64,000 nt of DNA from Pelagibacterales bacterium SAG-MED01 (GTDB lineage: Bacteria; Pseudomonadota; Alphaproteobacteria; Pelagibacterales; Pelagibacteraceae). The position numbers and the translations under genes were made by a program. The stretch covers positions 27,279 through 91,278 of the forward strand of contig JACWCY010000003.1 in NCBI GenBank assembly GCA_014654455.1, given 5' to 3'. Under the pieces are notes generated by a model. The model searched no databases and was not told the DNA's origin. It saw nothing but the letters and a program-made list of their open reading frames with translations. This document shows positions 4,477 to 24,704 of this stretch, piece by piece (position 1 is the first letter of the stretch; each line of letters begins with the position of its first letter).

Positions 4477-4481
4477 TTGAT

Positions 4482-7250: not shown

Positions 7251-8905
7251 TAGTTATCTTTTACCATATCACCTTTCATTTCATCACCAAAATATTTTAA
7301 GATGTTCATTATGGGAGTTGGTATTGCACCACATAGCGCACATAAACAACCCTTTTTCATTGTTACTAATAATTCATTAAGCAATTTAAGAGGAATTTTT
7401 GCAGTTTTTTTCTTAACCTGCTCAAACATCTCTTTTCCTCTATAAGATCCTAACCTGCCTGGAAAACATTTACCGCAAGACTCCTCAGCAGAAAATTCAA
7501 ATAAATGGTGAATGTATTCAGTCATTGGAAAATTTTTAGGAATACTTACAACACTGGCATGACCTAGCATAAAACCTTTTGAGGTAAATTCCTGAAAGTC
7601 TAAATTAAGATTATCAATTTCACTAAGAGGAACAACACCACCTAGAGGACCACCAACTTGAAATGCTTTTAAGGGTTCTTTGTATCCACCACCAATTTCA
7701 TTAAATATTTTTTTCATTGGTGTTCCCATATCTATTTCATAAACACCTGGATTATTAAAAAAACTGTCTAAACAAACTAACTTTGTTCCCGCAGATTTTT
7801 TATTTCCAATTGATGAGAATTTTTCAGCACCATTAATTAAAATACCCGTTGCTGCTGCTAAAGTTTCAACATTGTTAACTACAGTTGGCTTTTTATAAAG
7901 TCCCTCAGTAACCGGAAATGGAGGTCTAACATCTACCTCAGCACGCCTACCTTCAATTGATGCTATCAAAGCTGTTTCTTCACCACAAATATAAGCGCCT
8001 TGACCAATACAAATTCCAAGATCAAAAGAAAATTTAGTACCTAAAATATTTTCACCCAACAAGTTTAATTTTTTAAGTTCATTAATACATCCATTAATTG
8101 CTTCTATAGATTTTGGATATTCACCTCTAATATATAATACTCCTTCATCACTTCCTATTACCAAACCACATATTACCATTCCAAAAATAACTTTTAATGG
8201 CTGGTCCTCTAAAAGGTATCTGTCAGAAAATGCACCTGAGTCTCCTTCATCAGCGTTACATATAACATATTTTTTATCACCTTTTGCTTTACTACAGAAA
8301 TCCCATTTCATTCCAGCTGGAAAGCCTGCACCACCTCTTCCTGTTAGATTGGAGTCTAGTAATGACTTAACAATTTCTTTTTTATCTACTTTTAGGAATC
8401 TATTTAATTGATCTTTAAATTGTTCTGTTGAAGAAAGTTTATCATCCATTAAAAAGCTTGTAGTTGCATAACTTTTTGAAAAAAATTTTTCTTGTTTGAT
8501 ATCTTCTCCTTTTAAAATTTGATCAATTTTTTCAATATCTTTTCCTGCATAGTTTTCACCATCATAATGGAAAGCATGATTTTCGTAACAGTGCCCCAAA
8601 CAAAACATTTCACCTACTTTATCATCTCCAAGTTTTGATTTTAAAGTTTCTTTTAATTTGTCTTGAGTACCAGCACACATGCAGGCGCTGCCATTACAAA
8701 CAAAAGCTTTTTTTTCTCTATGTGAAGGTCTTAAAAACTCATAAAAGCTTTCTGCTCCATGAATAGTTGAAACACCTAAATTATATTCTTTCGCGATTTC
8801 TTTAATATCTTTTGGTGAGTTATTAAGGACATTTTCAGACATTTTTTTAAAAAGGTTGTCTTTCAATCCAACTCTACCTGATAAATTACTTATATTTTTT
8901 GACAC
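7250..8905 (-). CDS. Formate dehydrogenase beta/diaphorase subunit: NuoE-like 2Fe-2S domain fused to a NuoF-like FMN/NADH domain
   Basis: VCNGSAC...CLGHC (NuoE-like), RGGAGFPAGMKW, CNADEGD, GAYICGEETALI, PTVVNNVETL. The stop overlaps the alpha start. Confidence 0.88.
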   Translation of the reverse strand: MSKNISNLSGRVGLKDNLFKKMSENVLNNSPKDIKEIAKEYNLGVSTIHGAESFYEFLRPSHREKKAFVCNGSACMCAGTQDKLKETLKSKLGDDKVGEMFCLGHCYENHAFHYDGENYAGKDIEKIDQILKGEDIKQEKFFSKSYATTSFLMDDKLSSTEQFKDQLNRFLKVDKKEIVKSLLDSNLTGRGGAGFPAGMKWDFCSKAKGDKKYVICNADEGDSGAFSDRYLLEDQPLKVIFGMVICGLVIGSDEGVLYIRGEYPKSIEAINGCINELKKLNLLGENILGTKFSFDLGICIGQGAYICGEETALIASIEGRRAEVDVRPPFPVTEGLYKKPTVVNNVETLAAATGILINGAEKFSSIGNKKSAGTKLVCLDSFFNNPGVYEIDMGTPMKKIFNEIGGGYKEPLKAFQVGGPLGGVVPLSEIDNLNLDFQEFTSKGFMLGHASVVSIPKNFPMTEYIHHLFEFSAEESCGKCFPGRLGSYRGKEMFEQVKKKTAKIPLKLLNELLVTMKKGCLCALCGAIPTPIMNILKYFGDEMKGDMVKDN

Positions 8906-8921
8906 TAGTCTCCCCGCAATA

Positions 8922-9761
8922 TTAATTTACAATAACTTTTTGGTTATTTGTGTAAATGTTAAAACTATCCTCTTTTACGAAACCTATCAAGGTCATGTCA
9001 AATCTATTCGCTAGGTCTATTGCTAGACTAGTTGGCGCACCTACACCAATCATTAAGCCAATATTTGTCATTAAAACTTTCTGCACAAGTTCAAAATTAA
9101 GCCGACCTGAGCAAGTCACAAATTGATTTTTAGCCTCAATTTGGTTTTTATTTAAGGCATTTCCAATCATTTTATCTAAAGCATTATGCCTTCCAACATC
9201 TTCTCTAAGGGATATCAATTTTCCATCAGACGAAAATAATCCACTCGCATGAATTCCACCTGTTTTTGAAAACTCAGATTGATTTTGTCTTAATATTGAT
9301 GGTGATTTAATTATAATTTCTTTTGTTAATTTAGGCTCAGCCTTAAAAGTTTTTTCTTTTTTAATAATTTCTAAGGCATCAAGTGATGATTTTCCACAAA
9401 CTCCACATGATGAATTTGTTAAGAAGTCTCTTTTAATTTTAGAAATATTTATATTTTTGGAGTTATTAAGAGTGATTAATATTTTGTTTTGAATTTTATA
9501 TCGTCCAACTTTTTCACCAATACTTTGTATATTATCTACTTCATTTAAATTTTGAATTATTTGTTCATTAAATAAAAAACCTTTTACCAAGTCCTCATCA
9601 TGACCTGGTGTTCTCATTGTTATTGAAAGGCTGCTTGTCACCCATTCATTTTGATCTTTATATTTTATTGAGATTTCTAAAGGCTCCTCTATTGAAATAA
9701 GATCATCAATCTTTTCAAATTTATTTTTTTTAAATTTGATTACCTTATACTTAGAATTCAT
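8922..9761 (-). CDS. fdhD: Formate dehydrogenase accessory sulfurtransferase
   Basis: EEPLEI, MRTPG, SSCGVCGK, TGGIHASGLF, EDVGRHNALDK. Confidence 0.95.
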   Translation of the reverse strand: MNSKYKVIKFKKNKFEKIDDLISIEEPLEISIKYKDQNEWVTSSLSITMRTPGHDEDLVKGFLFNEQIIQNLNEVDNIQSIGEKVGRYKIQNKILITLNNSKNINISKIKRDFLTNSSCGVCGKSSLDALEIIKKEKTFKAEPKLTKEIIIKSPSILRQNQSEFSKTGGIHASGLFSSDGKLISLREDVGRHNALDKMIGNALNKNQIEAKNQFVTCSGRLNFELVQKVLMTNIGLMIGVGAPTSLAIDLANRFDMTLIGFVKEDSFNIYTNNQKVIVN

Positions 9762-9765
9762 CCAA

Positions 9766-10242
9766 TCATTTTAACGGATAATTCTTTTTAAGTAAAAATT
9801 TATTAATTAAAATAGCTAAAGAAATAATGATAATACATCCAAATATAATTGGACTTAGTAAATAATCATAAGAAACACTTCCAATAATTACCATTATAGG
9901 ATTTCCACCTGCTGGAGGATGGACAATATTAAGTAATATCATTAAAAAAATTCCAACTCCAACTGCTAAAGCTATATTAATGAATATTGGTAATGGTACA
10001 AGAGCTACAAAAACTACACCTACAAGCGCAGTAACTAAATGACCGAAAAAAACATTTTTTGGTTGGGCAAATGGACTTTCAGGAAAACCAAATAATAGAA
10101 CCATCGAAGACCCAAAAGATCCAGCTATGAATAAACCTAGAGTACTTTTGTAAGTTAAAATAGTAAGAACACCTATAGTGAAAGCTGAAAATATTCCAGC
10201 TAGAAGAGCTTTTTTAAGAATTTCTTTATTAATATTTACCAT
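9766..10242 (-). CDS. HPP-family membrane protein
   Basis: FGSSMVLLFGFPESPFAQPKNV and VHPPAG motifs. Start set at ATG 10242, which overlaps the upstream stop (TAATG). Confidence 0.88.
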   Translation of the reverse strand: MVNINKEILKKALLAGIFSAFTIGVLTILTYKSTLGLFIAGSFGSSMVLLFGFPESPFAQPKNVFFGHLVTALVGVVFVALVPLPIFINIALAVGVGIFLMILLNIVHPPAGGNPIMVIIGSVSYDYLLSPIIFGCIIIISLAILINKFLLKKNYPLK

Positions 10243-10640
10243 TATATTTTTAGAGCTTTTAAAACAGTTCTTAAAGGGAGAAGCAAGCATTCTTTTCTAG
10301 TTATATTTTTTTTGTCAAATAATTCTAAAAATTCTTTCCAATTTTTCTCAATTACAATTTTTGTATTATCAAATTTATTTTCACAAGAGGTAATAAATTT
10401 TTTTATTTCTTTGATATCTTTATTCTTTATTTTTTGTGACAGAAGACTTACTGAAGCTTGACAATAGACACACGATTTACACTGATAGCCCATATCTAAA
10501 ACTGTATCATTTTTTACCACTAAACTGATTTCCATCTCATCACCGCAAATTGGATTTTTATTTTTGGACTGGTGAGTGAAATTATCAATAACTTTATTAT
10601 TTTCGGTGTTAGACGCAATTTCTAAAATTCTTAAATCCAT
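10242..10640 (-). CDS. IscU/SufU (NifU N-terminal)-like Fe-S scaffold protein
   Basis: NPICGD, SCVYCQAS and RKECLLLP cysteine pattern. Confidence 0.75.
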   Translation of the reverse strand: MDLRILEIASNTENNKVIDNFTHQSKNKNPICGDEMEISLVVKNDTVLDMGYQCKSCVYCQASVSLLSQKIKNKDIKEIKKFITSCENKFDNTKIVIEKNWKEFLELFDKKNITRKECLLLPLRTVLKALKI

Positions 10641-10683
10641 ATTAATTCTTTAATTCAAAATTTAATGTTTTATATTTTAATAT

Positions 10684-11292
10684 ATGGATCTTAACAATAT
10701 TTTAGGTGTAGTGCTAGCGGGCGGAAAGTCCCAAAGATTTGGTCAAGATAAGTCTCAAGTGAAATTAAAAGGCAAAATATTGATAGATTATATTCTTTCT
10801 GAAATAATTGATGAATTTAATGAGACTTTAATAGTCACAAACAAAACAATTAATTTTATGGAGTCTGAAAAAATTACAATAATAAAAGATTTTAAAGAAG
10901 GACTAGGACCATTAGGAGGAGTTTTATCTGCAATGAAATGGATTAAAAAAAATGATAAAAAATATAGTTGGATATCTACATTCCCCTCTGACACTCCTTT
11001 TTTTACAAAAAAAGAATTAAAAAATTTTTACAAAAGTATTCAAATTGAAAAAAATAAATTATTCTTTATTAAAAATAACAAAACAAGGCATAATATTTTT
11101 GGGTTATGGTCTTTAGAATTGATGGATCAGTTAGAATCTGATTTATTAAAAGGTGAGAGAAAGGTAGAATTTTGGGCTAATTCGATTGGGGTAAGTACAA
11201 TTAATGTAGAGTGTCAAAATTTTGATCCCTTTTTTAATATCAATACTAAAGAAGATTTAGAAAAAGCTAAAGAAATATTAAATAATGATTAG
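10684..11292 (+). CDS. mobA: Molybdenum cofactor guanylyltransferase
   Basis: VVLAGGKSQRFGQDK, GPLGG, PSDTPF, FFNINTKEDL. Confidence 0.92.
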   Translation: MDLNNILGVVLAGGKSQRFGQDKSQVKLKGKILIDYILSEIIDEFNETLIVTNKTINFMESEKITIIKDFKEGLGPLGGVLSAMKWIKKNDKKYSWISTFPSDTPFFTKKELKNFYKSIQIEKNKLFFIKNNKTRHNIFGLWSLELMDQLESDLLKGERKVEFWANSIGVSTINVECQNFDPFFNINTKEDLEKAKEILNND

Positions 11293-12535
11293 TTATAAGC
11301 AATCTAGAAATAAACTAAAAAGATCAAAAATTATAATTAAAGATGAAATTATTAAAAGCTCTAATTGTTTAAATAGAGTTTCAGCTTCTAATATATTTAG
11401 TAAATCCAACAACCCTGCTGCAGATAATGCTGCATTCGATGGTTTTGCAATAAATTCGAAAGATACAAAAAATTTAAACAAAGAAAAAGGTCAACCATTT
11501 AAAATTTTGAAAACAATTGCTGCAGGAGATAAACCTTGGATTAAAAAATTAAAAAAATTTCAAACAGTAGAAATTATGACAGGTGGAATAATTCCAAAAG
11601 GATTTGATACAATAATACCAATAGAACAAATAGTTTTTTATCCCAATAAAAAAAAAGCCTTAAATATTTTAATTAATAATAAAGTTAAAAAATATCAACA
11701 TGTAAGATTTAAAGGATCAGATTTTAAAAGAAATGATTTACTAATAAAAAAAGGAACTATTTTACAATCTGATCATATTTTAGCTTTAAAAACTTTAGGA
11801 ATAACAAATATTAAAGTAAAAAAAATACCTAAAATATTATTTTTTTCTACAGGTAATGAAATAACTGATCAAAAAAAAATTCCGGACTGGAAAGTTAGAA
11901 ATTCGAATAGTTATTATATTCAATCATTAAAAGAAAATTTTAAATTTGATTTTATAAATGGTGGAATTTTAAGAGACAAGGATGAGTTAATTTTTAAAAA
12001 AAAAATAAAAAAGATGTTAAATTCAAACATTGATATCATTATTACCTCTGGAGCAGTATCAGCTGGAAAGTTTGATTATGTTCCAAGTATTATAAAAAAA
12101 TTCAAACTAACAAGTTATTTTAAGGGAGTTGCTATAAGACCAGGAAAGCCAGTTCTATTTGCAAAGATTAAATCTAGACAAAAGGCAATTTTTGGCCTAC
12201 CTGGAAATCCTATTTCATCAGCAGCATGTTTTAGATTCTTTGTTTATCCTTATTTACGAGATTTATTGGGCTTAAAAGAAGAAAAACCTATTAAAGCAAT
12301 TTTAAAAAATAATTTTGTAAAAAAAATAAATTTCACCCGTTTCGTTAAAAGTAGAATTAATACAACTAAAAATGGTAATGTAGAAGTTGAAATCCTAAAA
12401 GGTCAAGAGTCTTTTAAAATTCAGTCATTTATTAAATCAAATATTTGGACTTTATTACCTTCTGGAAAATCAAAATTCAAAAAGGGAGAAATTGTAGATT
12501 GTTTTTTTCCACATCATCCAAATAAAACTTTTTAA
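11285..12535 (+). CDS. moeA: Molybdopterin molybdotransferase
   Basis: AAFDGFA, IMTGG, STGNEI, TSGAVSAGKFD, IRPGKP, GLPGNPIS. Confidence 0.93.
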   Translation: MISYKQSRNKLKRSKIIIKDEIIKSSNCLNRVSASNIFSKSNNPAADNAAFDGFAINSKDTKNLNKEKGQPFKILKTIAAGDKPWIKKLKKFQTVEIMTGGIIPKGFDTIIPIEQIVFYPNKKKALNILINNKVKKYQHVRFKGSDFKRNDLLIKKGTILQSDHILALKTLGITNIKVKKIPKILFFSTGNEITDQKKIPDWKVRNSNSYYIQSLKENFKFDFINGGILRDKDELIFKKKIKKMLNSNIDIIITSGAVSAGKFDYVPSIIKKFKLTSYFKGVAIRPGKPVLFAKIKSRQKAIFGLPGNPISSAACFRFFVYPYLRDLLGLKEEKPIKAILKNNFVKKINFTRFVKSRINTTKNGNVEVEILKGQESFKIQSFIKSNIWTLLPSGKSKFKKGEIVDCFFPHHPNKTF

Positions 12536-12589
12536 GCGAAGATCTATTTTTTGTTGTAGTTCAAAGTAATTTTAATTAAACATTGATTT

Positions 12590-13495
12590 ATGATCGAATT
12601 GAAAAATGAAAAAATTGCAATCCCAGTAGTTTTGTTTGCGGGCCTTCTCTGGTCTTTTGGTCCACTAGTTGTGAGATACATGGATAATCCACATATGGTG
12701 CCATGGCAATATATCTTTGGTCGAGGATTAACAATATTTATACTTTTAAATCTATATTTATATTTTGAAGAGGGAGTGAATTTTTACAAAAATTATAAAA
12801 AAATAGGTAGATCTGGAATAATAGGAGGTTGTGGTCTTGGTATTGCTATGATTTCATTTATTTATTCTATTACAAATACTAGCGCAGCTATTACATTATT
12901 ATGTTTGGCTGCAATGCCATTTTTTACAGCTATTTTGGCTTATTTATTTTTAAAAGAAAAAATTTCACTAAATGTTTGGGTATCAATATTTTTAGCCACA
13001 ATTGGTATTATCATTATGGCTGCTGGTAACACTGAAAAAAATTCTTTCATAGGATTTCTTTTTGGAATTACATCTTCAATAGGATTTTCAGTATTTTCAG
13101 TAACTCTTAGATGGAGAAAAGAAACACCTAAATTCACAACAGTTGCAGTTGCAGGCCTATTCTGTTTTGTATTTGCTACTCTGATGATTTTAATTACACA
13201 ACAGTCTTTTTTTTCAACAAGTTATAATAGCTCTATGTTTTCATTGCATGGTACTCTAGTTTGTTTGGGGTTAATTTTATATTCAATTGGCTCAAAAGCT
13301 ATTCCAGCTGCTGAATTAACCTTGTTATCTTTGACAGAGGTTATTGGAGGAATTTTTTGGGTTTGGTTACCATTATTTGGAATTAACGAAATTCCATCAA
13401 CTTATACTATAATTGGTGGATTTTTTCTTTTTGTATCTCTAATTTACTATAGTCTCATTATGAGATGGAATAAGAGACATATTGCATTAAATTAA
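12590..13495 (+). CDS. DMT/EamA-family transporter
   Basis: About 10 hydrophobic segments; FLKEKIS and LSLTEVIGGIFWVWL EamA-like motifs. Confidence 0.85.
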   Translation: MIELKNEKIAIPVVLFAGLLWSFGPLVVRYMDNPHMVPWQYIFGRGLTIFILLNLYLYFEEGVNFYKNYKKIGRSGIIGGCGLGIAMISFIYSITNTSAAITLLCLAAMPFFTAILAYLFLKEKISLNVWVSIFLATIGIIIMAAGNTEKNSFIGFLFGITSSIGFSVFSVTLRWRKETPKFTTVAVAGLFCFVFATLMILITQQSFFSTSYNSSMFSLHGTLVCLGLILYSIGSKAIPAAELTLLSLTEVIGGIFWVWLPLFGINEIPSTYTIIGGFFLFVSLIYYSLIMRWNKRHIALN

Positions 13496-13505
13496 AGTTA
13501 AATCT

Positions 13506-14717
13506 ATGGAACGACCAGATTTTTTTACACTTAAAAATGGTGAAAAAGCAAAACTTCCTTTTTCAAATAAGGAATATAATCAGAGATTAAATAAATTAAG
13601 AGACTCAATGGATAGAAATAATCTCGATATGGTTATTTTAACTTCATTGCATAATGTAGCGTATTATACAGGTTTTATATATTGTTCTTTTGGTCGACCA
13701 TATGCTTGCATTGTAACTAAAAATAAAATTTCAACTATTTCTGCTAATATTGATGCTAGCCAACCTTGGAGAAGATCTCATTGTGATAATGTTATTTATA
13801 CAGATTGGAAAAGAGATAATTTTTTAAAAGCAATTGTTTCTATTATTGGAAGAGATGAACCTCCTAAAAATATAGGATTAGAAAATGATCATATTACTTT
13901 AGATATGAAAGAAAAAATTGGTTCTATTTTTAATTTTTCTATTTTTACTGATATTTCAAAAGATTTAATGAAACTTCGAATGATAAAATCAAAAGAAGAA
14001 ATAGAAATTATTAAAAATGGTGCAAGAATTGCTGATTTAGGAGGAGAAGAAATTGTAAAAAATATCAAAGCAGGTGCAACAGAATTAGAAATAGCTATTG
14101 CTGGAAGAGATAGAATGGAAAGAGAAATAGCAAAAACTTATCCTGATGCAGAATATATGGATACATGGGTTTGGTTTCAGTCAGGAATTAATACTGATGG
14201 TGCACATAATCCAAAAACAAATCGTAAATTAGTTAAAGGTGATATTTTATCATTAAATACTTTTCCGATGATTTCAGGATACTATACTGCTTTGGAAAGA
14301 ACTCTTTTTTTGGAGACGGTTGATGACAATTCTTTAAAGGCTTGGGAAGCAAATGTAAAAGTTCACAAAAGAGGATTAGAGCTTATTAAACCAGGAGTTA
14401 AGTGTTCAGATATTTGCAATGAATTAAATGAACTTTTTGCTGAACTTGGATATTTACAATATAGAACTTTTGGGTACGGACATTCATTTGGAGTGCTATC
14501 TCATTTTTATGGTAGAGAGGCTGGTTTAGAATTAAGAGAAGATATTGATACAATACTTGAAGAAAACATGGTTGTATCAATGGAGCCAATGATTTTAATT
14601 CCAGAAGGAAAATCAGGAGCTGGAGGGTATCGTGAACATGATATTCTCGTAATTGGAGACAAAGGTGCAGAAAATATAAGTAAATTTCCTTTTGGGCCAG
14701 AGCATAATATTATTTAA
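13506..14717 (+). CDS. Creatinase (creatine amidinohydrolase, M24 fold)
   Basis: Creatinase-specific motifs CSFGRPY, QPWRRS, YTDWKRDN, WFQSGINTDGAHNP, YYTALERT, GYGHSFGVLSHFYGRE, GAGGYREHDIL, FPFGPEHNII. Confidence 0.9.
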   Translation: MERPDFFTLKNGEKAKLPFSNKEYNQRLNKLRDSMDRNNLDMVILTSLHNVAYYTGFIYCSFGRPYACIVTKNKISTISANIDASQPWRRSHCDNVIYTDWKRDNFLKAIVSIIGRDEPPKNIGLENDHITLDMKEKIGSIFNFSIFTDISKDLMKLRMIKSKEEIEIIKNGARIADLGGEEIVKNIKAGATELEIAIAGRDRMEREIAKTYPDAEYMDTWVWFQSGINTDGAHNPKTNRKLVKGDILSLNTFPMISGYYTALERTLFLETVDDNSLKAWEANVKVHKRGLELIKPGVKCSDICNELNELFAELGYLQYRTFGYGHSFGVLSHFYGREAGLELREDIDTILEENMVVSMEPMILIPEGKSGAGGYREHDILVIGDKGAENISKFPFGPEHNII

Positions 14718-14724
14718 GGTTTAA

Positions 14725-15840
14725 ATGAAAAAAAATAAAATGATAGTTAATAGTTGGAATGAATGGGATCCTCTTAAACATGTTATAGTTGGAAGAGCAG
14801 ATGGCACATGTATACCTGCACCAGAACCAGCTCTCGATGCCAAGGTACCTGAAGACTCTGATATGAGAGGTAAATTTGGTCCAAGAACAAAAGATGCTGT
14901 AGATAAAGCTAATCAATTATTAGATGATTTTTCTAAAATGTTAGAAAGACGTGGAATTAAAGTAGATAGACCTTTACCGATAGATTTTAACCAAAAAACA
15001 TCTACTCCAGATTGGGACTCAGAAACCATGTTTGGCTGTATGCCTCCAAGGGATGTTTTACTTACAGTAGGAAATGAAATTTTAGAAGCTACAATGAGTT
15101 ATAGATGTAGATGGTTTGAATATCTTTGCTACAGACCTCTTTTAAAAGAATATTATAACTCAGATCCAAATATGAAGCATGAGGCTGCTCCAAAACCTAG
15201 ATTAACAGATGCTGATTATCGTAAAGATTATTTGTCAGATCAAATTGGTATTCAAAAAAGATTGCAATGGACTGAAGATAAATTTTTTGTAACTACAGAA
15301 GAAGAGCCTTTGTTTGATGCTGCCGATGTTTTAAGATTTGGTAAAGACCTAGTTGTTCAACACGGCTTTACAACAAATTTAAAAGGTATCGACTGGCTTA
15401 AGAGACATTACAAAGATCACAGAGTTCATACTGTAAATTTTCCTGGTGATCCTTACCCAATTCATATTGATGCAACTTTTACACCTATTAGAGAAGGTTT
15501 AATCATAAATAATCCTCAAAGAAAATTGCCAAATGAGCAGAGAAAATTATTTGAAAAAAATGGCTGGGAAATAATTGATGCTGCACAACCGGCTCATAAC
15601 GAGCCTCCACCACTGTGTTATTCATCTGTTTGGCTTTCCATGAATGTTTTAGTGCTTGATCCTAAAACAGTGTGTGTTGAGAAAAGTGAAAAATATCAAG
15701 CAGAACAATTAGATAAACTAGGAATGGAAGTAATTCCTGTAGAGTTGAGAGATGCATATGCTTTTGGAGGTGGTTTGCATTGTTGTACTGCTGACGTTTA
15801 TAGAGAAGGTGAATTAAAAGATTACTTTCCTAAGCAATAA
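14725..15840 (+). CDS. Amidinotransferase, L-arginine:glycine amidinotransferase (AGAT/GATM)-like
   Basis: NEWDPL..VIVGRA, PPRD, catalytic FDAAD / HID / GGGLHC, and SSxWLSMN. Confidence 0.88.
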   Translation: MKKNKMIVNSWNEWDPLKHVIVGRADGTCIPAPEPALDAKVPEDSDMRGKFGPRTKDAVDKANQLLDDFSKMLERRGIKVDRPLPIDFNQKTSTPDWDSETMFGCMPPRDVLLTVGNEILEATMSYRCRWFEYLCYRPLLKEYYNSDPNMKHEAAPKPRLTDADYRKDYLSDQIGIQKRLQWTEDKFFVTTEEEPLFDAADVLRFGKDLVVQHGFTTNLKGIDWLKRHYKDHRVHTVNFPGDPYPIHIDATFTPIREGLIINNPQRKLPNEQRKLFEKNGWEIIDAAQPAHNEPPPLCYSSVWLSMNVLVLDPKTVCVEKSEKYQAEQLDKLGMEVIPVELRDAYAFGGGLHCCTADVYREGELKDYFPKQ

Positions 15841-15845
15841 TTTAT

Positions 15846-16073
15846 TTAGCTTGGGTTTTGTTTTAAAAATTCAATATATTCTAAGACAATATTATATTTT
15901 TCATCAGGTATATCTTTGTAACTAGCATTAAATTTTTCTCTGACACACAACGCAACATGTGCGTAAGGATTACGGCCTTTGGGATGATTTGGATGTTCAG
16001 GTAGCTGACCTGCCAAATAATCGCCAGCTTCCTGAATAATTTTCCATAGTTTACCTGCATTTTCTTTATTCAT
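15846..16073 (-). CDS. Small conserved-looking hypothetical protein (75 aa); C-terminus resembles the ORF6C domain
   Basis: Non-low-complexity ORF; start overlaps the upstream stop at 16073; contains HPNHPKGRNPYAH. Confidence 0.6.
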   Translation of the reverse strand: MNKENAGKLWKIIQEAGDYLAGQLPEHPNHPKGRNPYAHVALCVREKFNASYKDIPDEKYNIVLEYIEFLKQNPS

Positions 16074-16900
16074 TAATAAGATCCTTTTTTTGATGATCCT
16101 TTATAAAAAATATCTTGAAGATTATGATTTTCTCTCTTTTTTATTTTTAAATCATTTTCATTAAGTAAAGATTTAGGTCTTCCAATTTTTTCATGAAAAT
16201 CAAATTCATCAACACCTCTTGCTAATTGAACACTATTTTTACCTAAAATTTGCTTAACATTAGTTCCAATATAACTTTGAATTACAAAACCTATTCTTCG
16301 ATCATTACTTTTGTTTAAATCTGAACCGTGGACTACAGTAGGGTGATGAAGAGACATTTGCCCTGCATTTAAAATTAATGGTGTAGTTTTTTCTTTTGGT
16401 ACATTTTTGACAGTTTGACCCCTAGTTAATAAATTACCTTCATTAAACTTTTGATCATGTTCTTTAAGATTATCTTTATGTGACCCTGACCACATTCTCA
16501 TGCATCCATTTTTTTCATTGGAATCAGTTATAGCAACCCAAGCAGTTACCCAGTTATGTGGCTCTAAACCTATATACTTTGCATCTTGGTGATAGCTAAC
16601 AAATCCTTTTTCATTTGGATTTTTAATAAACAAAGTAGTTCCGCAAACAAGTATATTTTTACCAATTAAACTTTCAACAGCATCTAAAATTTTTGAATTA
16701 TGTGTTACTTCATCTAGTAAAGGTGAGATTAAATGAGCATTATATCTTCCAGATTTTTCTAATTCATCAGGAATTCTACTTTCAATCAATTCAATTTCAT
16801 TTCTTATTTTTTTTGTTTTTGCATCAGAGAAAATGTTTATTGGAGAAACAAATCCCTCATCCTCATACTGTTTGAGTTGATTTGAAGAAAGATAAGACAT
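16073..16900 (-). CDS. Fe(II)/2-oxoglutarate dioxygenase, PhyH family
   Basis: HQD...VHGS facial triad, NGCM..GSH and a terminal RR motif. Confidence 0.88.
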   Translation of the reverse strand: MSYLSSNQLKQYEDEGFVSPINIFSDAKTKKIRNEIELIESRIPDELEKSGRYNAHLISPLLDEVTHNSKILDAVESLIGKNILVCGTTLFIKNPNEKGFVSYHQDAKYIGLEPHNWVTAWVAITDSNEKNGCMRMWSGSHKDNLKEHDQKFNEGNLLTRGQTVKNVPKEKTTPLILNAGQMSLHHPTVVHGSDLNKSNDRRIGFVIQSYIGTNVKQILGKNSVQLARGVDEFDFHEKIGRPKSLLNENDLKIKKRENHNLQDIFYKGSSKKGSY

Positions 16901-16916
16901 AATATTAAAATATTAT
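16899..16916. promoter_or_regulatory. Palindromic 16-bp head-to-head spacer (ATAATATT-AA-AATATTAT); probable bidirectional leaderless promoter
   Basis: 8-bp inverted repeat spans the gap between divergent ATGs at 16900 and 16917; TAAAAT at 16906-16911. Confidence 0.4.
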
Positions 16917-17702
16917 ATGAGCATATCTATTTCTTCAATAAATTATTGCCCAGTCAAATCTATTTCTTTTCAAACTATTAAAAGTTGTGAAATTAGAAAA
17001 AATATTGGAATAATTGGAGACAGAATTTTTGCATTTTCCAAAGGATTAGATTTAAATCAATCACAGTTATTTGAAAAAAAGATTGAAGAGAGGAGAGGAA
17101 AATGGAACAAACTTCTTACTCTTAAAAACTCACCTTCTTTAAACAAATATAATTTTTTGTTTGGTAATGATAAATTAACGCTTGTTCAAAATAATAATGA
17201 AATTTTAACAATAAATAGTAATAAAACTGATGAATATGGATTGCTTTCAAACAAAATTCTAGAATTAGAAAACTCTTTTCAACAACCTTTGTTTTTGATG
17301 AAAAATAAAGATATTCCTTTTTTTGATACATCTATATCAAATAAGACACTTTTAACTCATTCAATATCTCTCATAAACATTAAAAGTATTGAGGATTTTA
17401 AAAATAAAACTAACCAAGAAATTGAGACCCAAAGATTTAGGGGCAATCTATATGTTGATGGAGTTGATGCTTGGGAAGAAAGAAATTGGATTGGAAATAT
17501 TATTAAGATAAACAATATTTCATTCAAAGTTGAAAAAAATATACCAAGATGTGTGGCAATCAACTTAAAACCAAATACTGATGATAATAGTTTGAATTTA
17601 CTTCAATCTTTAAAAAAAAATTATAATCATTTTGATATGGGAGTTTATTTAACAGCATTAGACGATGGATTAATTAATATCGGTGATAATATTTCATTAT
17701 AA
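16917..17702 (+). CDS. MOSC-domain protein (MOSC N-terminal beta-barrel plus MOSC)
   Basis: YCPVKS, GDRIFA, RFRGNLYVDG..AWEE, PRCVAIN (Moco-ligating Cys), MGVY. Confidence 0.85.
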   Translation: MSISISSINYCPVKSISFQTIKSCEIRKNIGIIGDRIFAFSKGLDLNQSQLFEKKIEERRGKWNKLLTLKNSPSLNKYNFLFGNDKLTLVQNNNEILTINSNKTDEYGLLSNKILELENSFQQPLFLMKNKDIPFFDTSISNKTLLTHSISLINIKSIEDFKNKTNQEIETQRFRGNLYVDGVDAWEERNWIGNIIKINNISFKVEKNIPRCVAINLKPNTDDNSLNLLQSLKKNYNHFDMGVYLTALDDGLINIGDNISL

Positions 17703-17799
17703 AATTTTATAATCAACTCCAGATTGAAATTTTTCAGCTATACTTTTTAAATCATTTTTGGTTTAATTATTTTTTTAATTAAAAAATAGGGGAGAATAA

Positions 17800-18645
17800 A
17801 TGAGTAAACTATTTAAATCGTTAACAGTTTTACTTGTGCTTCTTTTTTCAATTTCTTCTGTAAGCGCGAAAACTCTTACAGAAAGACTTGCAGATGGACA
17901 CAAACTAAGACTAGGTTTTGGAACGGCAGTGCCATGGGCTTACGCTGGAGACAGTGGTGAGGCTTTAGGTTTTGTAAACATGATAGCATTAACAGTGCTA
18001 GAGGAGATGGGCATTACCGAACATGAAACAAAAGTTTTTGAATGGTCAGGACTAATACCTGGATTAAATGCAGATCGTGCAGATATGATTACTGGTGGTA
18101 TGTACATTCTTAAAAGCAGGTGTGAAAACATGGACTTTTCAGATCCTATTGGTGTTTTTGGAGATGCAATGCTAGTTCCAAAAGGAAATCCAAAAAATAT
18201 TAACAATTATGCTGATGTTATTTCAACTGGTGCAAAATTAGTAACTGGTACTGGATTTAATACAGTAGAGGCTGCTAAAAAATATGGTGTACCGGATAGC
18301 CAAATGCTTTTAGTTGAAGGCGAAGTTGGAATTTTGGCTGCAATGAAAGCAGGAAGAGCCGACGTTGCTGTGCAAACATTCTTTGGTGCTAAAGAGCATG
18401 AGAAAAAAACTAATGGTAAATTTGAGGTGACTGATCCTAAATTGATGCCTAAAGAAACATTAAACGTTGTAGGTATTGGATTTAGAAAAGGTGATGACAA
18501 GTTTCGAGAAGCATTTAATGCTGCTCTAGCTAAAGTTATGGCTAACCCAGGAACTATGCTGAAAAGAGCTGGAGAGTATGGGTATGATAAAGCTCAACTT
18601 CCTCCACCAGATATGAGTACTGCTTGGGCTTGTTCAACTAAATAA
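17800..18645 (+). CDS. ABC transporter substrate-binding protein, EhuB (ectoine/hydroxyectoine)-like; ligand uncertain
   Basis: Signal peptide; LIPGL, RC..MDFSDP, LVPKGNPKNI, GFRKGD motifs; C-terminal Cys; GGGGAG RBS. Confidence 0.8.
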   Translation: MSKLFKSLTVLLVLLFSISSVSAKTLTERLADGHKLRLGFGTAVPWAYAGDSGEALGFVNMIALTVLEEMGITEHETKVFEWSGLIPGLNADRADMITGGMYILKSRCENMDFSDPIGVFGDAMLVPKGNPKNINNYADVISTGAKLVTGTGFNTVEAAKKYGVPDSQMLLVEGEVGILAAMKAGRADVAVQTFFGAKEHEKKTNGKFEVTDPKLMPKETLNVVGIGFRKGDDKFREAFNAALAKVMANPGTMLKRAGEYGYDKAQLPPPDMSTAWACSTK

Positions 18646-18665
18646 TATTTATATTAAATTTTAAT

Positions 18666-18699
18666 CAGGCGACTTTTATTAAGTCGCCTGGTTTTTTTT
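18666..18699 (+). terminator. Intrinsic terminator/stabilising hairpin after the SBP gene
   Basis: Perfect 10-bp stem CAGGCGACTT/AAGTCGCCTG with a 5-nt loop, followed by G and 8 T. Confidence 0.85.
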
Positions 18700-18713
18700 A
18701 TAAAGGTACGTAA

Positions 18714-19385
18714 GTGAGTTATATAGAATTTTTATCTGAACATGGGGCAACTTTGCTTTTAGGTACAGTTATGACACTAAAAGTTTTAGTTTGTTCTATT
18801 ATTTTGTATGTCATCATCTCGATGATATTTGGCTTGATGAGATTGTCTAAAAATTCAATTATTCAAGCCACAGCTACCATATATATAGAATTTTTTAGAG
18901 GAACTTCTTTATTAGTTCAATTATTTTGGGTTTACTACGTGCTTCCATTTTTTGGAATTTCTCTTGAGGCATTCACAGCTGGTGTAGTTGCACTCGGGTT
19001 AAATTTTGGTGCTTATGGAGCTGAAATAGTAAGAGGAGGTGTTTTGGCAGTACCCAAAGGTCAATGGGAAGCAGCATTTGCATTAAATTTTAGTCCTTCT
19101 AAGAGAATGAAGAATATAATTATCCCTCAAATTTTTCCAATCATTTTACCACCAGCTGCAAATTTAACTGTAGAACTTTTAAAAGCGACAGCATTAGTTG
19201 CACTAGTAACAGTTGTTGATTTAACTTTTGAAGCAAGACAAATAAATTCGATTACATGGTTATCGGTTCAATGTTTTGGAACAGCATTATTAATCTATTA
19301 TTTTATATCAAGATTTCTTTTAGTACCTTTTTTAAGATGGCTTGAGGTATTGGCTGCACGAAAAGTTGGAAAGGGTGGAGCTTAG
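18714..19385 (+). CDS. ehuC: Amino-acid ABC permease, EhuC-like (GTG start)
   Basis: FRGTSLLVQLFW and AYGAEIVRGG EAA loop. Confidence 0.75.
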   Translation: MSYIEFLSEHGATLLLGTVMTLKVLVCSIILYVIISMIFGLMRLSKNSIIQATATIYIEFFRGTSLLVQLFWVYYVLPFFGISLEAFTAGVVALGLNFGAYGAEIVRGGVLAVPKGQWEAAFALNFSPSKRMKNIIIPQIFPIILPPAANLTVELLKATALVALVTVVDLTFEARQINSITWLSVQCFGTALLIYYFISRFLLVPFLRWLEVLAARKVGKGGA

Positions 19386-19388
19386 TTT

Positions 19389-20066
19389 ATGGAAATGGGA
19401 TGGCGATGGGATTTTGCCTATGAAATTTTACCTCAAATGTTATTAGCAACTTTTAATACTATAGTTGCAGCTGGAGTAGGGTATACAATCGCTTTGGTGG
19501 TAGGCTTATTTTTTTTATTAGGTCAAAGAACTCCGTCAAAAATAATTAATGTGATTAATAGAGAAATAGTTGAGTTTGTGAGATCTACTCCACTTTTAAT
19601 ACAACTATTTTTCGTATACTTTGTGCTTCCTCAATTTGGTATTACTTTATCAGCTTGGGTTTGTGGAATGATTACAATTGGACTACACTTTGGGACTTAT
19701 CTTTCTGAGGTTTATAGAGGAGCATTGGAGGGTGTATCAAAAACTCAATGGGAAGCTTGTAGAGCCTTGAACTTTTCAACAATTTATACTTATCGTAGAA
19801 TTGTTTTACCTCAAGCATTTCCGATCGCAATACCAGGTATGGGAAATTACTTAGTAGGTATTTTTAAAGACACTCCATTACTTTCAACTATTGGTGTAGC
19901 AGAATTATTTCATGCAGCAACTGCAGTTGGAGGGTATAATTATAGATATTTAGAACCATATACAATGGTTGGTATAATTTTTTTAATTCTTTCAGTTCCT
20001 GCAGCAATGGGTATAAGAAAATTAGAAAAAAAAGTTAATTCAGCACAAGGAAAAATTAATCAATAA
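19389..20066 (+). CDS. ehuD: Amino-acid ABC permease, EhuD-like
   Basis: WRWDFAYEILP, RSTPLLIQL, YLSEVYRG, FKDTPLLS, YRYLEP. Confidence 0.8.
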   Translation: MEMGWRWDFAYEILPQMLLATFNTIVAAGVGYTIALVVGLFFLLGQRTPSKIINVINREIVEFVRSTPLLIQLFFVYFVLPQFGITLSAWVCGMITIGLHFGTYLSEVYRGALEGVSKTQWEACRALNFSTIYTYRRIVLPQAFPIAIPGMGNYLVGIFKDTPLLSTIGVAELFHAATAVGGYNYRYLEPYTMVGIIFLILSVPAAMGIRKLEKKVNSAQGKINQ

Positions 20067-20857
20067 TGAAAACTAAAAACGATAAAGAAATTATAGTAAA
20101 ATTTTCAGATGTAACTAAACAATATAGCGATTTAGTAGTTTTAGATAAATTAAACTTAGAAATAAAAAAAAATGAGATGGTTTCAATTATTGGACCATCG
20201 GGATCTGGCAAAACTACAGTTCTTAGAGTTCTTATGACTCTAGAAAAAATTAATCAAGGAATAATTCACCTTGATGGAGAACCACTAACACATATGAAAG
20301 AAGGAGAAAAACTCATTCCTGCAAGTGAAAAATATCTTCGAGAAAAACGTTCAAAAATAGGAATGGTTTTTCAACAATTTAATTTATTCCCCCATATGAC
20401 TGCTTTACAAAATTGTATTGAGGCACCTATTGAAGTGCTTGGTATGAAAAAAGAAGAAGCAGAAGCAAGAGCTCTAGAGTTATTAGAACTAGTAGGTTTG
20501 ACTGATAAAAAAAATGAACATCCTTCAAGACTTTCTGGTGGACAACAACAAAGAGTAGCTATAGCAAGAGCTCTTGCAATGAGACCTAAGGTAATGCTCT
20601 TAGATGAAATAACATCTGCATTAGACCCTGAAGTTGTTGGAGAAGTTTTAAATGTAATTAGATCTTTAAATAAAGAGCATAATTTAACAATGATAATGGT
20701 TACTCATCAAATGGGATTTGCTAGAGAAATTTCAGATAGGGTGTGTTTTTTTAATGAAGGAAAAATTTATGAGCAGGGGCCACCAGAACAATTATTTGGA
20801 GATCCACAGAACGAGAGAACTAAGCAATTTTTACACGCTGTTCTGGACGCTAATTAG
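20066..20857 (+). CDS. ehuA: ABC ATP-binding protein, EhuA-like
   Basis: GPSGSGKT, VLRVLMTLE, LSGGQQQRV, LLDE. Confidence 0.85.
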   Translation: MKTKNDKEIIVKFSDVTKQYSDLVVLDKLNLEIKKNEMVSIIGPSGSGKTTVLRVLMTLEKINQGIIHLDGEPLTHMKEGEKLIPASEKYLREKRSKIGMVFQQFNLFPHMTALQNCIEAPIEVLGMKKEEAEARALELLELVGLTDKKNEHPSRLSGGQQQRVAIARALAMRPKVMLLDEITSALDPEVVGEVLNVIRSLNKEHNLTMIMVTHQMGFAREISDRVCFFNEGKIYEQGPPEQLFGDPQNERTKQFLHAVLDAN

Positions 20858-23825: not shown

Positions 23826-24704
23826 TTAAGATTTTTTAAGCTTAAGAAATGAGTGAGCAGCGATAGTTAAAATGATAACCACACCTCCTTGCAGAGTCTC
23901 TATACTCGGCTGTTCTTTGATTATAAGCCAAACCCAGATTGGTCCAATAATGGTCTCTAATAGAAAAAATAGATTAACTTCCGCTGCTGGTATAAATCTT
24001 GGTGCTATAGTTACTAATACAAAAGGTATTGCCACACAAAGAATACACATTAAAGGAACAATGATTAAATCATTATTTTCAAGCACAAAACTTTCAATAA
24101 AAAATAATGCAAATGTAGCAACAAACAACTTACCAACAACAGCAGCAGGAACCAAATTTTTAGATTTAGCTGATCTAATAGTTACTGCTCCCACAGCAAG
24201 ACCAATTGCAGTAATAAATCCTAGTATATCACCATAAAAATTACCTAATTTGATAGAATCAGAAAATATATAGATTATTGCTAAAAAAGTAATAATTATA
24301 GAGATCCATGTTTTTTTATCAGGAGGTTCTTTTAAAAAGATTGCACCAAGTATAGCCGAGAGCATTGGAGCTGTAGCTATCATTACCAAGGTATTAGCTA
24401 CATTGGTGTTCTGAATTGAAACTACAAACGTGATATTTGTTATGCTAAAGGTGCTTATATAAACAAGTCCATGATAACCACTCGAAAACAACATTTTAAA
24501 AAAATTTAATTTGTAAATAATAAGCATTCCAAAAAAAACAGTAAAAAATGGAATAATGCCTCTATAAAAAACTAAACCCCAAGTATCAACGTTTGAAAGT
24601 CTTATAAATAACGAGTCTGGAGTGATAAAAATTACAGCTACAAAGGCTAATAAAGAGCCTTTTTGTTGATCAGTTAAATTATTCATGCTTTTAGTTCTTT
24701 CCAA
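23826..24704 (-). CDS. DMT/EamA-family transporter
   Basis: About 10 TM segments; FLKE and LLETIIGPIWVW motifs. Confidence 0.85.
   Translation of the reverse strand: MERTKSMNNLTDQQKGSLLAFVAVIFITPDSLFIRLSNVDTWGLVFYRGIIPFFTVFFGMLIIYKLNFFKMLFSSGYHGLVYISTFSITNITFVVSIQNTNVANTLVMIATAPMLSAILGAIFLKEPPDKKTWISIIITFLAIIYIFSDSIKLGNFYGDILGFITAIGLAVGAVTIRSAKSKNLVPAAVVGKLFVATFALFFIESFVLENNDLIIVPLMCILCVAIPFVLVTIAPRFIPAAEVNLFFLLETIIGPIWVWLIIKEQPSIETLQGGVVIILTIAAHSFLKLKKS

What the first reader, a model, noticed from the sequence alone, without database searches (positions are those of the whole stretch)
12590..15840. DMT transporter - creatinase - AGAT-like amidinotransferase operon: candidate guanidino-compound salvage pathway
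Seen: three co-directional genes separated by 10 and 7 bp. The creatinase has family-specific motifs, and the amidinotransferase keeps the Asp/His/Cys triad (FDAAD, HID, GGGLHC) plus the SSxWLSMN and NPxR elements of animal AGAT. No guanidinoacetate methyltransferase or urease lies in the window. Established: creatinase gives sarcosine plus urea; AGAT reversibly converts Arg + Gly to Orn + guanidinoacetate; SAR11 is a conditional glycine auxotroph. Inference: a synthase and a hydrolase of the same pathway in one operon argues against creatine biosynthesis. Option (a): the transferase runs in reverse, so guanidinoacetate or creatine + ornithine gives Arg + Gly or sarcosine. That would capture both amidino nitrogens without urease and supply glycine. 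Option (b): AGAT plus a guanidinoacetate-hydrolysing creatinase act together as a glycine-catalysed arginase. I know of neither as a described SAR11 route.
Basis: partly seen in the sequence, partly recalled or inferred. Interest (0 to 1): 0.85.

Follow-up and report, generated by a model that had tools for sequence, protein, structure and literature searches.

The report
SAR11 creatine and guanidino-acid salvage operon
The ocean's most abundant bacterium keeps a transporter, a true creatinase and an uncharacterised AGAT-like amidinotransferase in one transcribed operon, which most likely scavenges creatine-type compounds for glycine and arginine; the chemistry is untested.

Summary
Three co-directional genes (DMT/EamA transporter, creatinase, AGAT-like amidinotransferase; gaps of 10 and 7 bp) lie at 12590-15840 in a Pelagibacter (SAR11) genome.

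- **Creatinase:** genuine (E=5e-157 to solved creatinases; 11/11 active-site residues kept).
- **Transferase:** 45% identical to human AGAT. It keeps the catalytic and donor-binding residues but has its own invariant specificity flap (Tyr/Ile in place of Asn300/Met302).
- **Synteny:** creatinase sits directly upstream of the transferase in 68 of 72 SAR11 loci.
- **Transcription:** metatranscriptome contigs bridge both gene junctions.

New findings:
- The transporter-transferase pair persists in five loci that lack creatinase.
- 25 loci add a glycine-forming L-threonine aldolase as a fourth gene.
- An unrelated Roseobacter-type lineage independently places a creatinase next to the transferase, in convergent orientation.
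- Elsewhere the transferase is a solo gene, 76-83% identical across genomes of 28-66% GC. NCBI names it "serine/threonine protein kinase".

Best reading (inferred, about 0.4): the transferase runs towards arginine, moving the amidino group of imported guanidinoacetate and/or creatine onto ornithine. This avoids urea, which cultured SAR11 cannot use. No publication on this pair was found.

The parts
12548..12559 (+). Conserved leader element TTTTTGTTGTAG within the 54-nt spacer (12536-12589) upstream of the transporter gene. Probably a promoter or operator.
   Evidence: In 42 distinct SAR11 leaders, ATTTTTGTTGTAG is at least 90% conserved amid divergent flanks, followed about 17 nt later by AATTA. 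It is unique in the window. No Rfam family matches. RNA contig depth rises from about 0-4 to 11-96 across 12591. Its function is inferred.
12590..13495 (+). DMT/EamA-family membrane transporter (301 aa). It is the constant partner of the amidinotransferase in SAR11. Its substrate and direction are unknown; import of guanidino acids is proposed.
   Evidence: Pfam EamA E=1.9e-18. TIGR00950 carboxylate/amino acid/amine transporter E=2e-15, below the family cut-off. It lies upstream of the transferase in every SAR11 locus with enough sequence, including five without creatinase. Its homologues are saturated by SAR11 sequences.
13506..14717 (+). Creatinase (creatine amidinohydrolase, 403 aa): creatine + H2O -> sarcosine + urea.
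   Evidence: 1chm E=5.2e-157 over the full length. 57.4% identity to P. putida creatinase, with C60, F62, R64, H232, Y258, A260, E262, H324, R335, E358 and H376 all conserved. Present in 68 of 72 SAR11 loci.
14725..15840 (+). AGAT-like amidinotransferase (371 aa) of a distinct, very conserved marine clade. The catalytic machinery is intact and the specificity flap is altered.
   Evidence: Human AGAT E about 4e-86. 44.7% identity; D170, D254, H303, D305, R322, S355 and C407 are conserved; N300->Y244, M302->I246, K356->V, F405->L, W408->C. The DPYPIHID flap is invariant in about 115 of 120 family members and is specific to this clade among superfamily representatives.

Best explanation
This is a scavenging operon for creatine-type guanidino acids.

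Proposed steps:
1. The DMT protein moves the substrate across the membrane. Import is proposed.
2. The creatinase hydrolyses creatine to sarcosine plus urea. Sarcosine then goes to glycine and a C1 unit through SAR11's known sarcosine and C1-oxidation enzymes.
3. The AGAT-like enzyme runs in the direction opposite to animal creatine synthesis. Its active-site cysteine takes the amidino group from an imported guanidino acid and passes it to ornithine. This makes arginine and releases the de-amidinated amine. Guanidinoacetate is the most conservative guess for the donor; other omega-guanidino acids are possible, and the amine released from guanidinoacetate is glycine.

What this achieves: both amidino nitrogens are captured without urease, part of the cost of arginine synthesis is saved, and the glycine that SAR11 needs is supplied.

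Shown: gene identities, intact catalytic residues, conserved synteny, transcription across the junctions, and independent creatinase-transferase linkage in a second lineage.

Inferred: the direction of the transferase reaction, its substrates, and the transporter's substrate and direction.
For: - Creatinase is genuine.
- The transferase keeps the Cys-His-Asp triad plus the guanidino-binding and carboxylate-binding residues, so an arginine/ornithine half-reaction is expected.
- AGAT reactions are written as equilibria, Arg+Gly <-> GAA+Orn (PMC9103764).
- Tight operon: 10 and 7 bp spacers, no terminator-like site between the genes, and RNA-library contigs bridging both junctions (X5 contig 14543-14763 with 0 mismatches; X7 contig 13322-13527).
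- Synteny holds in 68 of 72 SAR11 loci. The three genes are more conserved than their flanks: 85, 87 and 92% identity versus 67% for moeA in the same 47 loci.
- Glycine theme: an L-threonine aldolase (1v72 E=3.7e-106) sits 6 nt downstream in 25 loci.
- Independent linkage: a true creatinase (11/11 residues) lies convergent to the transferase, 59-164 nt away, in 7 of 71 Roseobacter-type loci. These form at least three nucleotide-distinct groups.
- HTCC1062 and HTCC7211 lack urease, and urea may be inhibitory (PMC8437039). No urea-utilisation genes were found in South Pacific Gyre SAR11 (PMC11366302).
- No GAMT in the window.
Against: - No biochemical data exist for this clade. Direction and substrates are inferred only from context.
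- DMT/EamA proteins are often exporters (own knowledge), which would fit synthesis and export instead.
- In most non-SAR11 genomes the transferase is a solo gene in unrelated contexts. Its core role therefore does not need creatinase or this transporter.
- The specificity flap differs from every characterised arginine:glycine enzyme, so glycine/guanidinoacetate may not be the true pair.
- I found no evidence on guanidinoacetate concentrations in seawater.
- No glycine-responsive or nitrogen-responsive regulatory element was identified.
- RNA-library contigs can contain contaminating DNA (caveat printed).
Confidence: 0.4

Rival explanations
1. The transferase acts on creatine and sarcosine themselves: creatine + ornithine <-> sarcosine + arginine. 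It would then be a nitrogen-conserving alternative to the creatinase for the same substrate. Because the reaction is reversible, it would also make creatine from sarcosine.
For: - Creatinase-transferase adjacency arose twice, in different arrangements. This points to creatine specifically.
- The N300/M302 positions are documented specificity determinants (PMC3684758). In this clade they are invariantly Tyr/Ile.
- The residues flanking the catalytic Cys are smaller (F405->L, W408->C).
- Field isotope tracing showed 13C3,15N1-creatine formed from sarcosine by 'an unidentified enzyme'. No label appeared in methionine or SAM, and SAR11 dominated the bhmt transcripts (PMC9321204).
Against: - To my knowledge, no amidinotransferase is known to use a secondary amine as acceptor or creatine as donor.
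- Five SAR11 lineages keep the transporter and transferase without creatinase.
- Most other carriers show no creatinase nearby.
- The pocket could not be modelled: the AF2 model had a mean pLDDT of only 63.5.
Confidence: 0.2
2. Forward, biosynthetic direction. Arginine plus glycine (or another amine) gives ornithine plus a guanidino compound, which is kept as a solute or exported by the DMT protein. Creatinase and threonine aldolase would serve to supply glycine.
For: - DMT/EamA proteins are commonly exporters (own knowledge).
- A solo transferase gene is enough for a one-step synthesis, which fits the many solo contexts.
- The glycine-forming neighbours could feed the acceptor.
- KEGG-based studies already read the gene as taurine -> taurocyamine (bioRxiv 10.1101/2024.12.10.627767).
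Against: - It would spend arginine nitrogen and scarce glycine in a nitrogen-limited organism that is a conditional glycine auxotroph.
- No GAMT or kinase is present to use the product.
- Pairing with a hydrolase of the methylated analogue is hard to rationalise.
- None of the searches aimed at guanidinoacetate or the amidinotransferase in SAR11/marine bacteria turned up a report of a SAR11 guanidino osmolyte.
Confidence: 0.15
3. The transferase and creatinase together form a catalytic cycle equal to an arginase: Arg -> Orn + urea, with glycine or sarcosine as the recycled carrier.
For: The two reactions are stoichiometrically complementary and the genes are co-transcribed. The sarcosine version needs no change in creatinase specificity.
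Against: - The creatinase active site is unchanged from the creatine-specific enzyme. The glycine version therefore lacks support.
- Urea is useless, and perhaps harmful, to urease-less SAR11 (PMC8437039).
- An arginase-family gene (speB1) is already assigned to SAR11.
- Two genes replacing one is unlikely in a streamlined genome.
- Creatinase is absent from five lineages that keep the transferase.
Confidence: 0.05
4. There is no shared pathway. The transferase has an unrelated conserved role, and its position next to creatinase in SAR11 is a by-product of genome compaction.
For: The transferase is solo in most lineages. Its extreme conservation suggests a self-contained function.
Against: A second, independently arranged creatinase adjacency exists. 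Synteny holds in 68 of 72 loci, and the operon is better conserved than its flanks. The transporter is always retained.
Confidence: 0.1

Closest known systems
Animal L-arginine:glycine amidinotransferase (AGAT/GATM, EC 2.1.4.1; PDB 1jdw)
   Same: Full-length homology (E about 4e-86, 44.7% identity). The Cys407-His303-Asp254 triad is identical, as are Asp170, Asp305, Arg322 and Ser355. A ping-pong, reversible transamidination is therefore expected.
   Different: The flap residues are Tyr/Ile instead of Asn300/Met302, and the residues around the catalytic Cys differ. There is no mitochondrial presequence region. It is not paired with GAMT, and in SAR11 it sits in a catabolic-looking operon. Substrates are untested.
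Cyanobacterial CyrA/AoaA arginine:glycine amidinotransferases (cylindrospermopsin pathway)
   Same: They are bacterial AGAT homologues with conserved catalytic residues and altered flap residues that control specificity (PMC3684758).
   Different: CyrA/AoaA have Phe/Ser at the flap positions and sit in a toxin biosynthetic cluster. The SAR11 clade has Tyr/Ile and no secondary-metabolite genes nearby.
Pseudomonas putida creatinase (PDB 1chm; CreA pathway creatine -> sarcosine + urea)
   Same: 57% identity and all 11 mapped active-site residues are the same. The same reaction is expected.
   Different: In SAR11 the gene is fused into an operon with an amidinotransferase and a DMT transporter, in an organism without urease (PMC8437039).
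SAR11 glycine betaine -> dimethylglycine -> sarcosine -> glycine demethylation and C1 oxidation network (Sun et al. 2011; PMC3686209; PMC9321204)
   Same: It feeds the same sarcosine/glycine/C1 pool. Formate dehydrogenase and its cofactor genes lie directly upstream in the window. Creatinase has been listed as core to SAR11 subgroup Ia.
   Different: Sun et al. 2011, checked directly, mentions neither creatine nor an amidino enzyme. The other two papers mention no amidinotransferase, and none of the four searches aimed at it or the pairing found a description of the pairing.

Membership tests
Creatinase (creatine amidinohydrolase, EC 3.5.3.3; M24 pita-bread family) | Creatinase_N domain followed by a Peptidase_M24 domain | tested here: met
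   PF01321 E=5.4e-15 (residues 27-160) and PF00557 E=3.2e-32 (residues 168-383).
Creatinase (creatine amidinohydrolase, EC 3.5.3.3; M24 pita-bread family) | Closer to solved creatinases than to prolidases, aminopeptidases P or ectoine hydrolases | tested here: met
   Creatinases score E=1e-146 to 1e-157, versus prolidases at about 1e-24 and DoeA at about 1e-10. No NCBIfam model reaches its cut-off, and the list holds no creatinase-named model.
Creatinase (creatine amidinohydrolase, EC 3.5.3.3; M24 pita-bread family) | Catalytic His232 and substrate-binding Glu262, Glu358, Arg64, Arg335, Phe62 (P. putida numbering; residue roles from my own knowledge of Coll et al. 1990) | tested here: met
   All 11 mapped residues are identical.
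Creatinase (creatine amidinohydrolase, EC 3.5.3.3; M24 pita-bread family) | Hydrolyses creatine to sarcosine and urea | not testable with these tools
   Needs an enzyme assay.
L-arginine:glycine amidinotransferase (EC 2.1.4.1) / amidinotransferase family | Full-length homology to the AGAT/StrB1 fold | tested here: met
   Residues 8-368 align to human AGAT (E about 4e-86). SxtG, HsvA and StrB1 are also matched.
L-arginine:glycine amidinotransferase (EC 2.1.4.1) / amidinotransferase family | Catalytic triad Cys407-His303-Asp254 | tested here: met
   C353, H247 and D198. The triad definition is cited in PMC3684758.
L-arginine:glycine amidinotransferase (EC 2.1.4.1) / amidinotransferase family | Donor-binding residues Asp170, Asp305, Arg322, Ser355 | tested here: met
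   D110, D249, R266 and S301 are conserved. The residue roles are from my own knowledge of Humm et al. 1997.
L-arginine:glycine amidinotransferase (EC 2.1.4.1) / amidinotransferase family | Specificity residues Asn300 and Met302 of animal AGAT (Phe/Ser in CyrA) | tested here: not met
   Tyr244 and Ile246. These are invariant in the marine clade and differ from other clades. I therefore file it as an amidinotransferase, not as a proven arginine:glycine enzyme.
L-arginine:glycine amidinotransferase (EC 2.1.4.1) / amidinotransferase family | Arginine as donor and glycine as acceptor in vitro | not testable with these tools
   Needs an enzyme assay.
Creatine biosynthesis pathway (AGAT + GAMT) | A guanidinoacetate N-methyltransferase partner | tested here: not met
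   None among the window ORFs. Whole-genome absence could not be tested. Microbial GAMT is reported as rare in the ocean (PMC11360552).
DMT/EamA transporter superfamily | Two EamA repeats (about 10 transmembrane helices) | tested here: inconclusive
   One EamA stretch (residues 10-143) passes Pfam. The second half is covered only by the TIGR00950 alignment 60-285, which is below its cut-off. The length and hydrophobic sequence are typical.
Bacterial operon (co-transcribed unit) | Same strand, short spacers, no internal terminator, transcripts spanning the junctions, conserved order | tested here: met
   Caveat: the RNA evidence comes from assembled metatranscriptome contigs without strand information, and DNA carry-over is possible.

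The most novel reading that the evidence does not exclude
The SAR11 enzyme, and its whole marine clade, is an arginine:sarcosine / creatine:ornithine amidinotransferase. That would be the first amidinotransferase working on an N-methylated amine. It would give SAR11 a urea-free way to harvest creatine nitrogen as arginine. By running reversibly, it would also be the 'unidentified enzyme' behind the sarcosine-to-creatine flux seen by isotope tracing in North Pacific communities (PMC9321204).
Probability: 0.2. Interest if true: 0.8.

Novelty: new variant of a known kind. Interest (0 to 1): 0.6.

Why it matters
SAR11 dominates surface-ocean bacterioplankton and is limited by nitrogen and by glycine supply. 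The 90%-identity cluster holding this transferase has 7,560 member sequences.

If the transferase moves amidino groups from dissolved guanidino acids onto ornithine, it defines an unrecognised route by which animal-derived and phytoplankton-derived creatine or guanidinoacetate nitrogen enters bacterial arginine without passing through urea. That would change how creatine-type dissolved organic nitrogen is budgeted.

It also offers a concrete, testable candidate for an unexplained field observation (creatine made from sarcosine).

Finally, it exposes a systematic annotation error. NCBI names this family "serine/threonine protein kinase" and names the creatinase "aminopeptidase P family protein", which hides the pathway in GenBank-based surveys.

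Tried and rejected
- **Structure prediction:** the transferase model came out poor (mean pLDDT 63.5; the flap and active-site loops were below 50). The alignment was shallow, so I did not use the model or run fold searches.
- **RNA families:** Rfam at gathering threshold over the whole window, and at E<=1 around the leader, found no riboswitch.
- **Promoter/terminator scan:** promoter-like sites were no more frequent than in shuffles and none stood out in the leader. There was no terminator-like site inside the operon.
- **Viral contigs:** no viral copy of the transferase.
- **Transporter homologues:** the search was saturated by near-identical SAR11 sequences and gave no functional clue.
- **Omics supplements:** none are held for the SAR11 nitrogen-limitation study, so regulation under N limitation could not be checked.
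- **Read laying:** the first attempt was blocked by a sequence filter and was repeated on a shorter stretch.
- **Sun et al. 2011:** the paper does not mention creatine or amidino enzymes.
- **Considered and rejected:**
  - Secondary-metabolite amidinotransferase: there are no biosynthetic neighbours.
  - Recently transferred island: GC3 of the three genes is low and SAR11-like, 0.12-0.18.
  - Guanidinoacetate-specific creatinase: the active site is unchanged.


Full report

Yes. The window carries three co-directional ORFs at 12590-13495, 13506-14717 and 14725-15840, with spacers of 10 and 7 bp.

- The first ORF is an EamA/DMT transporter.
- The second has Creatinase_N plus Peptidase_M24 domains. 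It matches the three solved creatinases over its whole length (E=1e-146 to 5e-157). Prolidases, aminopeptidases P and ectoine hydrolases score only 1e-24 or worse.
- The third aligns end to end with human L-arginine:glycine amidinotransferase (E about 4e-86). It aligns more weakly with SxtG, HsvA and StrB1.

The window is from SAR11: the 80 closest genomic loci are all Pelagibacteraceae, at 91-95% protein identity. A Pfam scan of the remaining ORFs found no urease, arginase or GAMT-like protein.

**2. The enzymes in detail**

I mapped the literature-numbered active sites onto the window proteins.

- **Creatinase.** It is 57% identical to the P. putida enzyme. It retains C60, F62, R64, H232, Y258, A260, E262, H324, R335, E358 and H376. 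Nothing suggests a changed substrate.
- **Transferase.** It is 44.7% identical to human AGAT. It retains the Cys407-His303-Asp254 triad and Asp170, Asp305, Arg322 and Ser355. It is therefore almost certainly an active amidinotransferase with an arginine/ornithine-type half-reaction.
- **Where the transferase differs.** The two flap residues known to govern specificity are Tyr244 and Ile246. These positions are Asn300 and Met302 in human AGAT and Phe/Ser in CyrA/AoaA (PMC3684758). The residues flanking the catalytic cysteine are also smaller (F405->L, W408->C).
- **Flap conservation.** The motif DPYPIHID is essentially invariant in 120 family members. Among 150 representatives of the wider superfamily this position is hypervariable. 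Tyr-Pro-Ile marks only this marine clade.

For these reasons I call it an AGAT-like amidinotransferase, not a proven arginine:glycine enzyme.

**3. Is it an operon, and how conserved is it?**

- Creatinase lies immediately upstream of the transferase in 68 of the 72 SAR11 loci with enough sequence.
- In the same 47 loci, the three proteins are 85%, 87% and 92% identical to the window's. The adjacent MoeA is only 67% identical.
- No terminator-like site lies inside the cluster.
- Contigs assembled from marine metatranscriptomes cover all three genes and bridge both junctions. One contig spans 14543-14763 with no mismatch, and another spans 13322-13527. Depth rises sharply at the start of the transporter gene.
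- These contigs carry no strand information, and DNA carry-over cannot be excluded.
- The 53-55-nt leader contains an invariant ATTTTTGTTGTAG block, followed about 17 nt later by AATTA, amid otherwise divergent sequence. It is probably a promoter or operator. No riboswitch is present.

**4. New anatomy beyond the finding**

(a) Five SAR11 loci (L004, L058, L059, L076, L080) have the transporter followed directly by the transferase, with no creatinase. One metatranscriptome contig shows the same junction. The transporter-transferase pair is therefore the constant core.

(b) In 25 loci a fourth co-directional gene starts 6 nt after the transferase. It is an L-threonine aldolase (1v72 E=3.7e-106), an enzyme that makes glycine.

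(c) Outside SAR11 the transferase is 76-83% identical, even though the host loci have 49-66% GC. There it usually stands alone in unrelated neighbourhoods.

(d) There is one exception to (c). In 7 of 71 Roseobacter-type metagenomic loci a genuine creatinase (11/11 active-site residues) lies 59-164 nt downstream in convergent orientation. These loci fall into at least three nucleotide-distinct groups of 51-55% GC. In an eighth locus a creatinase lies 4.7 kb away. Two independent, differently arranged adjacencies make a functional link between the two enzymes much more credible than SAR11 genome compaction alone would.

**5. Mechanism**

Established chemistry: creatinase gives sarcosine plus urea, and AGAT-type transamidination is reversible (PMC9103764).

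Context from the literature:
- Cultured SAR11 lack urease, and urea build-up has been proposed to inhibit them (PMC8437039).
- In a South Pacific Gyre comparison that included SAR11, urea-utilisation genes were found only in other clades (PMC11366302).
- SAR11 needs glycine or a precursor, and it oxidises C1 units. Formate dehydrogenase and its cofactor genes lie just upstream in this window.

Best reading (confidence about 0.4): this is a scavenging operon.
- Creatine is hydrolysed to sarcosine for glycine and energy.
- The transferase runs toward arginine. It moves the amidino group of an imported guanidino acid onto ornithine and releases glycine. Guanidinoacetate is the conservative guess for the donor.

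The direction, the substrates and the role of the transporter are all inferences.

Option (b), a glycine-catalysed arginase, is disfavoured by the unchanged creatinase site, by the lineages that lack creatinase, by the uselessness of urea, and by an arginase-family gene already assigned to SAR11.

**6. The most interesting alternative**

North Pacific isotope tracing found that labelled glycine betaine yields 13C3,15N1-creatine. That means creatine was made from intact sarcosine. No label appeared in methionine or SAM, and SAR11 dominated the first demethylation step. The authors invoked "an unidentified enzyme" or a reversible creatinase (PMC9321204).

A reversible creatine:ornithine / arginine:sarcosine amidinotransferase encoded next to creatinase would explain this. 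The clade-specific flap and the recurrent creatinase linkage are compatible with it. No amidinotransferase is known to handle an N-methylated amine, so I give it about 0.2.

**7. Novelty**

Creatinase has been listed as a core gene of SAR11 subgroup Ia (PMC3686209). KEGG/IMG pipelines label the transferase "glycine amidinotransferase", and one preprint reads it as taurine -> taurocyamine. None of the four searches aimed at the amidinotransferase or the pairing found a paper that describes the pairing, the enzyme's properties or a salvage route. The library does not cover most subscription journals.

Both enzymes belong to known families. The combination, the distinct flap clade and the proposed direction make this a new variant of a known kind. 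My interest score is 0.6. The operon is abundant, conserved, transcribed and directly testable, and it has a plausible link to an open field observation. The biochemistry is entirely unproven.

Noticed in passing
window 14725-15840 and 13506-14717; clusters: NCBI records name this amidinotransferase family 'serine/threonine protein kinase' (Pelagibacter, Rhodobacter, Aliiroseovarius, Rhizobiales) and name the SAR11 creatinase 'aminopeptidase P family protein'. JGI/IMG names them 'glycine amidinotransferase' and 'creatinase'. This looks like a systematic misannotation.
   Followed up: partly
L081-L091 and L092-L171 versus window 14725-15840: The transferase is 76-83% identical between SAR11 and bacteria whose loci have 49-66% GC; the window's own stretch around the gene is 33.5% GC. 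That conservation is unusually high for a metabolic enzyme and is unexplained. It could reflect very strong constraint or gene flow.
   Followed up: partly
L068 9119-10171 (+), and 24 other SAR11 loci: An L-threonine aldolase gene sits 6 nt downstream of the transferase as a fourth operon gene. It is absent from this window.
   Followed up: yes
L004, L058, L059, L076, L080; RNA joint 13495->14736: These are natural SAR11 variants in which the transporter gene is followed directly by the transferase gene, with no creatinase. The same junction is seen in one metatranscriptome contig.
   Followed up: yes
L103, L104, L105, L107, L108, L110, L117 (and L115): In these Roseobacter-type metagenomic loci a true creatinase is convergent to the transferase. 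In L108 an aldehyde dehydrogenase and a PaaX-like regulator follow.
   Followed up: yes
window 15846-16073 (-): An unannotated 75-aa ORF has a start codon overlapping the stop of the PhyH-family gene, and it ends 5 nt from the transferase stop (convergent). It has no Pfam match.
   Followed up: partly
window 16073-20857: This stretch holds a PhyH-family dioxygenase (-), a MOSC-domain protein, and an ABC transporter whose binding protein resembles the ectoine-binding EhuB (160.6 bits, below the 190.9 cut-off). The set occurs downstream of the transferase in only about 6 of the SAR11 loci. Ectoine is a cyclic amidine, so a link to amidino/guanidino solutes is conceivable but untested.
   Followed up: no
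window 1924-12535: The upstream flank has a C1 theme: a DAO-family FAD oxidase weakly like ThiO or monomeric sarcosine oxidase (1924-3027), SelO, formate dehydrogenase alpha and beta subunits, FdhD, an HPP membrane protein, NifU-like, MobA and MoeA. I could not establish whether the oxidase is the N-limitation-induced 'sox' SAR11_1304 of PMC3870248.
   Followed up: partly
L092-L171, downstream of the transferase: In Roseobacter-type loci a short-chain dehydrogenase follows the transferase in 20 loci. By eye, 9-11 loci carry a class-III alcohol (formaldehyde) dehydrogenase-like gene and an esterase-D-like gene further downstream. Only the SDR was checked against Pfam.
   Followed up: partly
L087 14386-16499: In a 49% GC relative, an agmatinase-family ureohydrolase and a DoeA-like M24 hydrolase form a pair 5 kb downstream of the transferase, next to an ABC transporter ATPase.
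   Followed up: no
window 23826-24704 (-): A second EamA transporter, 31% identical to the operon's, lies beside the glutathione synthetase and glutamate-cysteine ligase genes. The same paralogue lies 3-4 kb downstream of the transferase in many other SAR11 loci.
   Followed up: no
clusters 1-3: The 90%-identity clusters returned for the transferase, the creatinase and the oxidase each contain members named after the neighbouring gene. For example, a 405-aa 'creatinase' sits in the transferase cluster. This suggests fused gene calls or a clustering artefact in the database.
   Followed up: no
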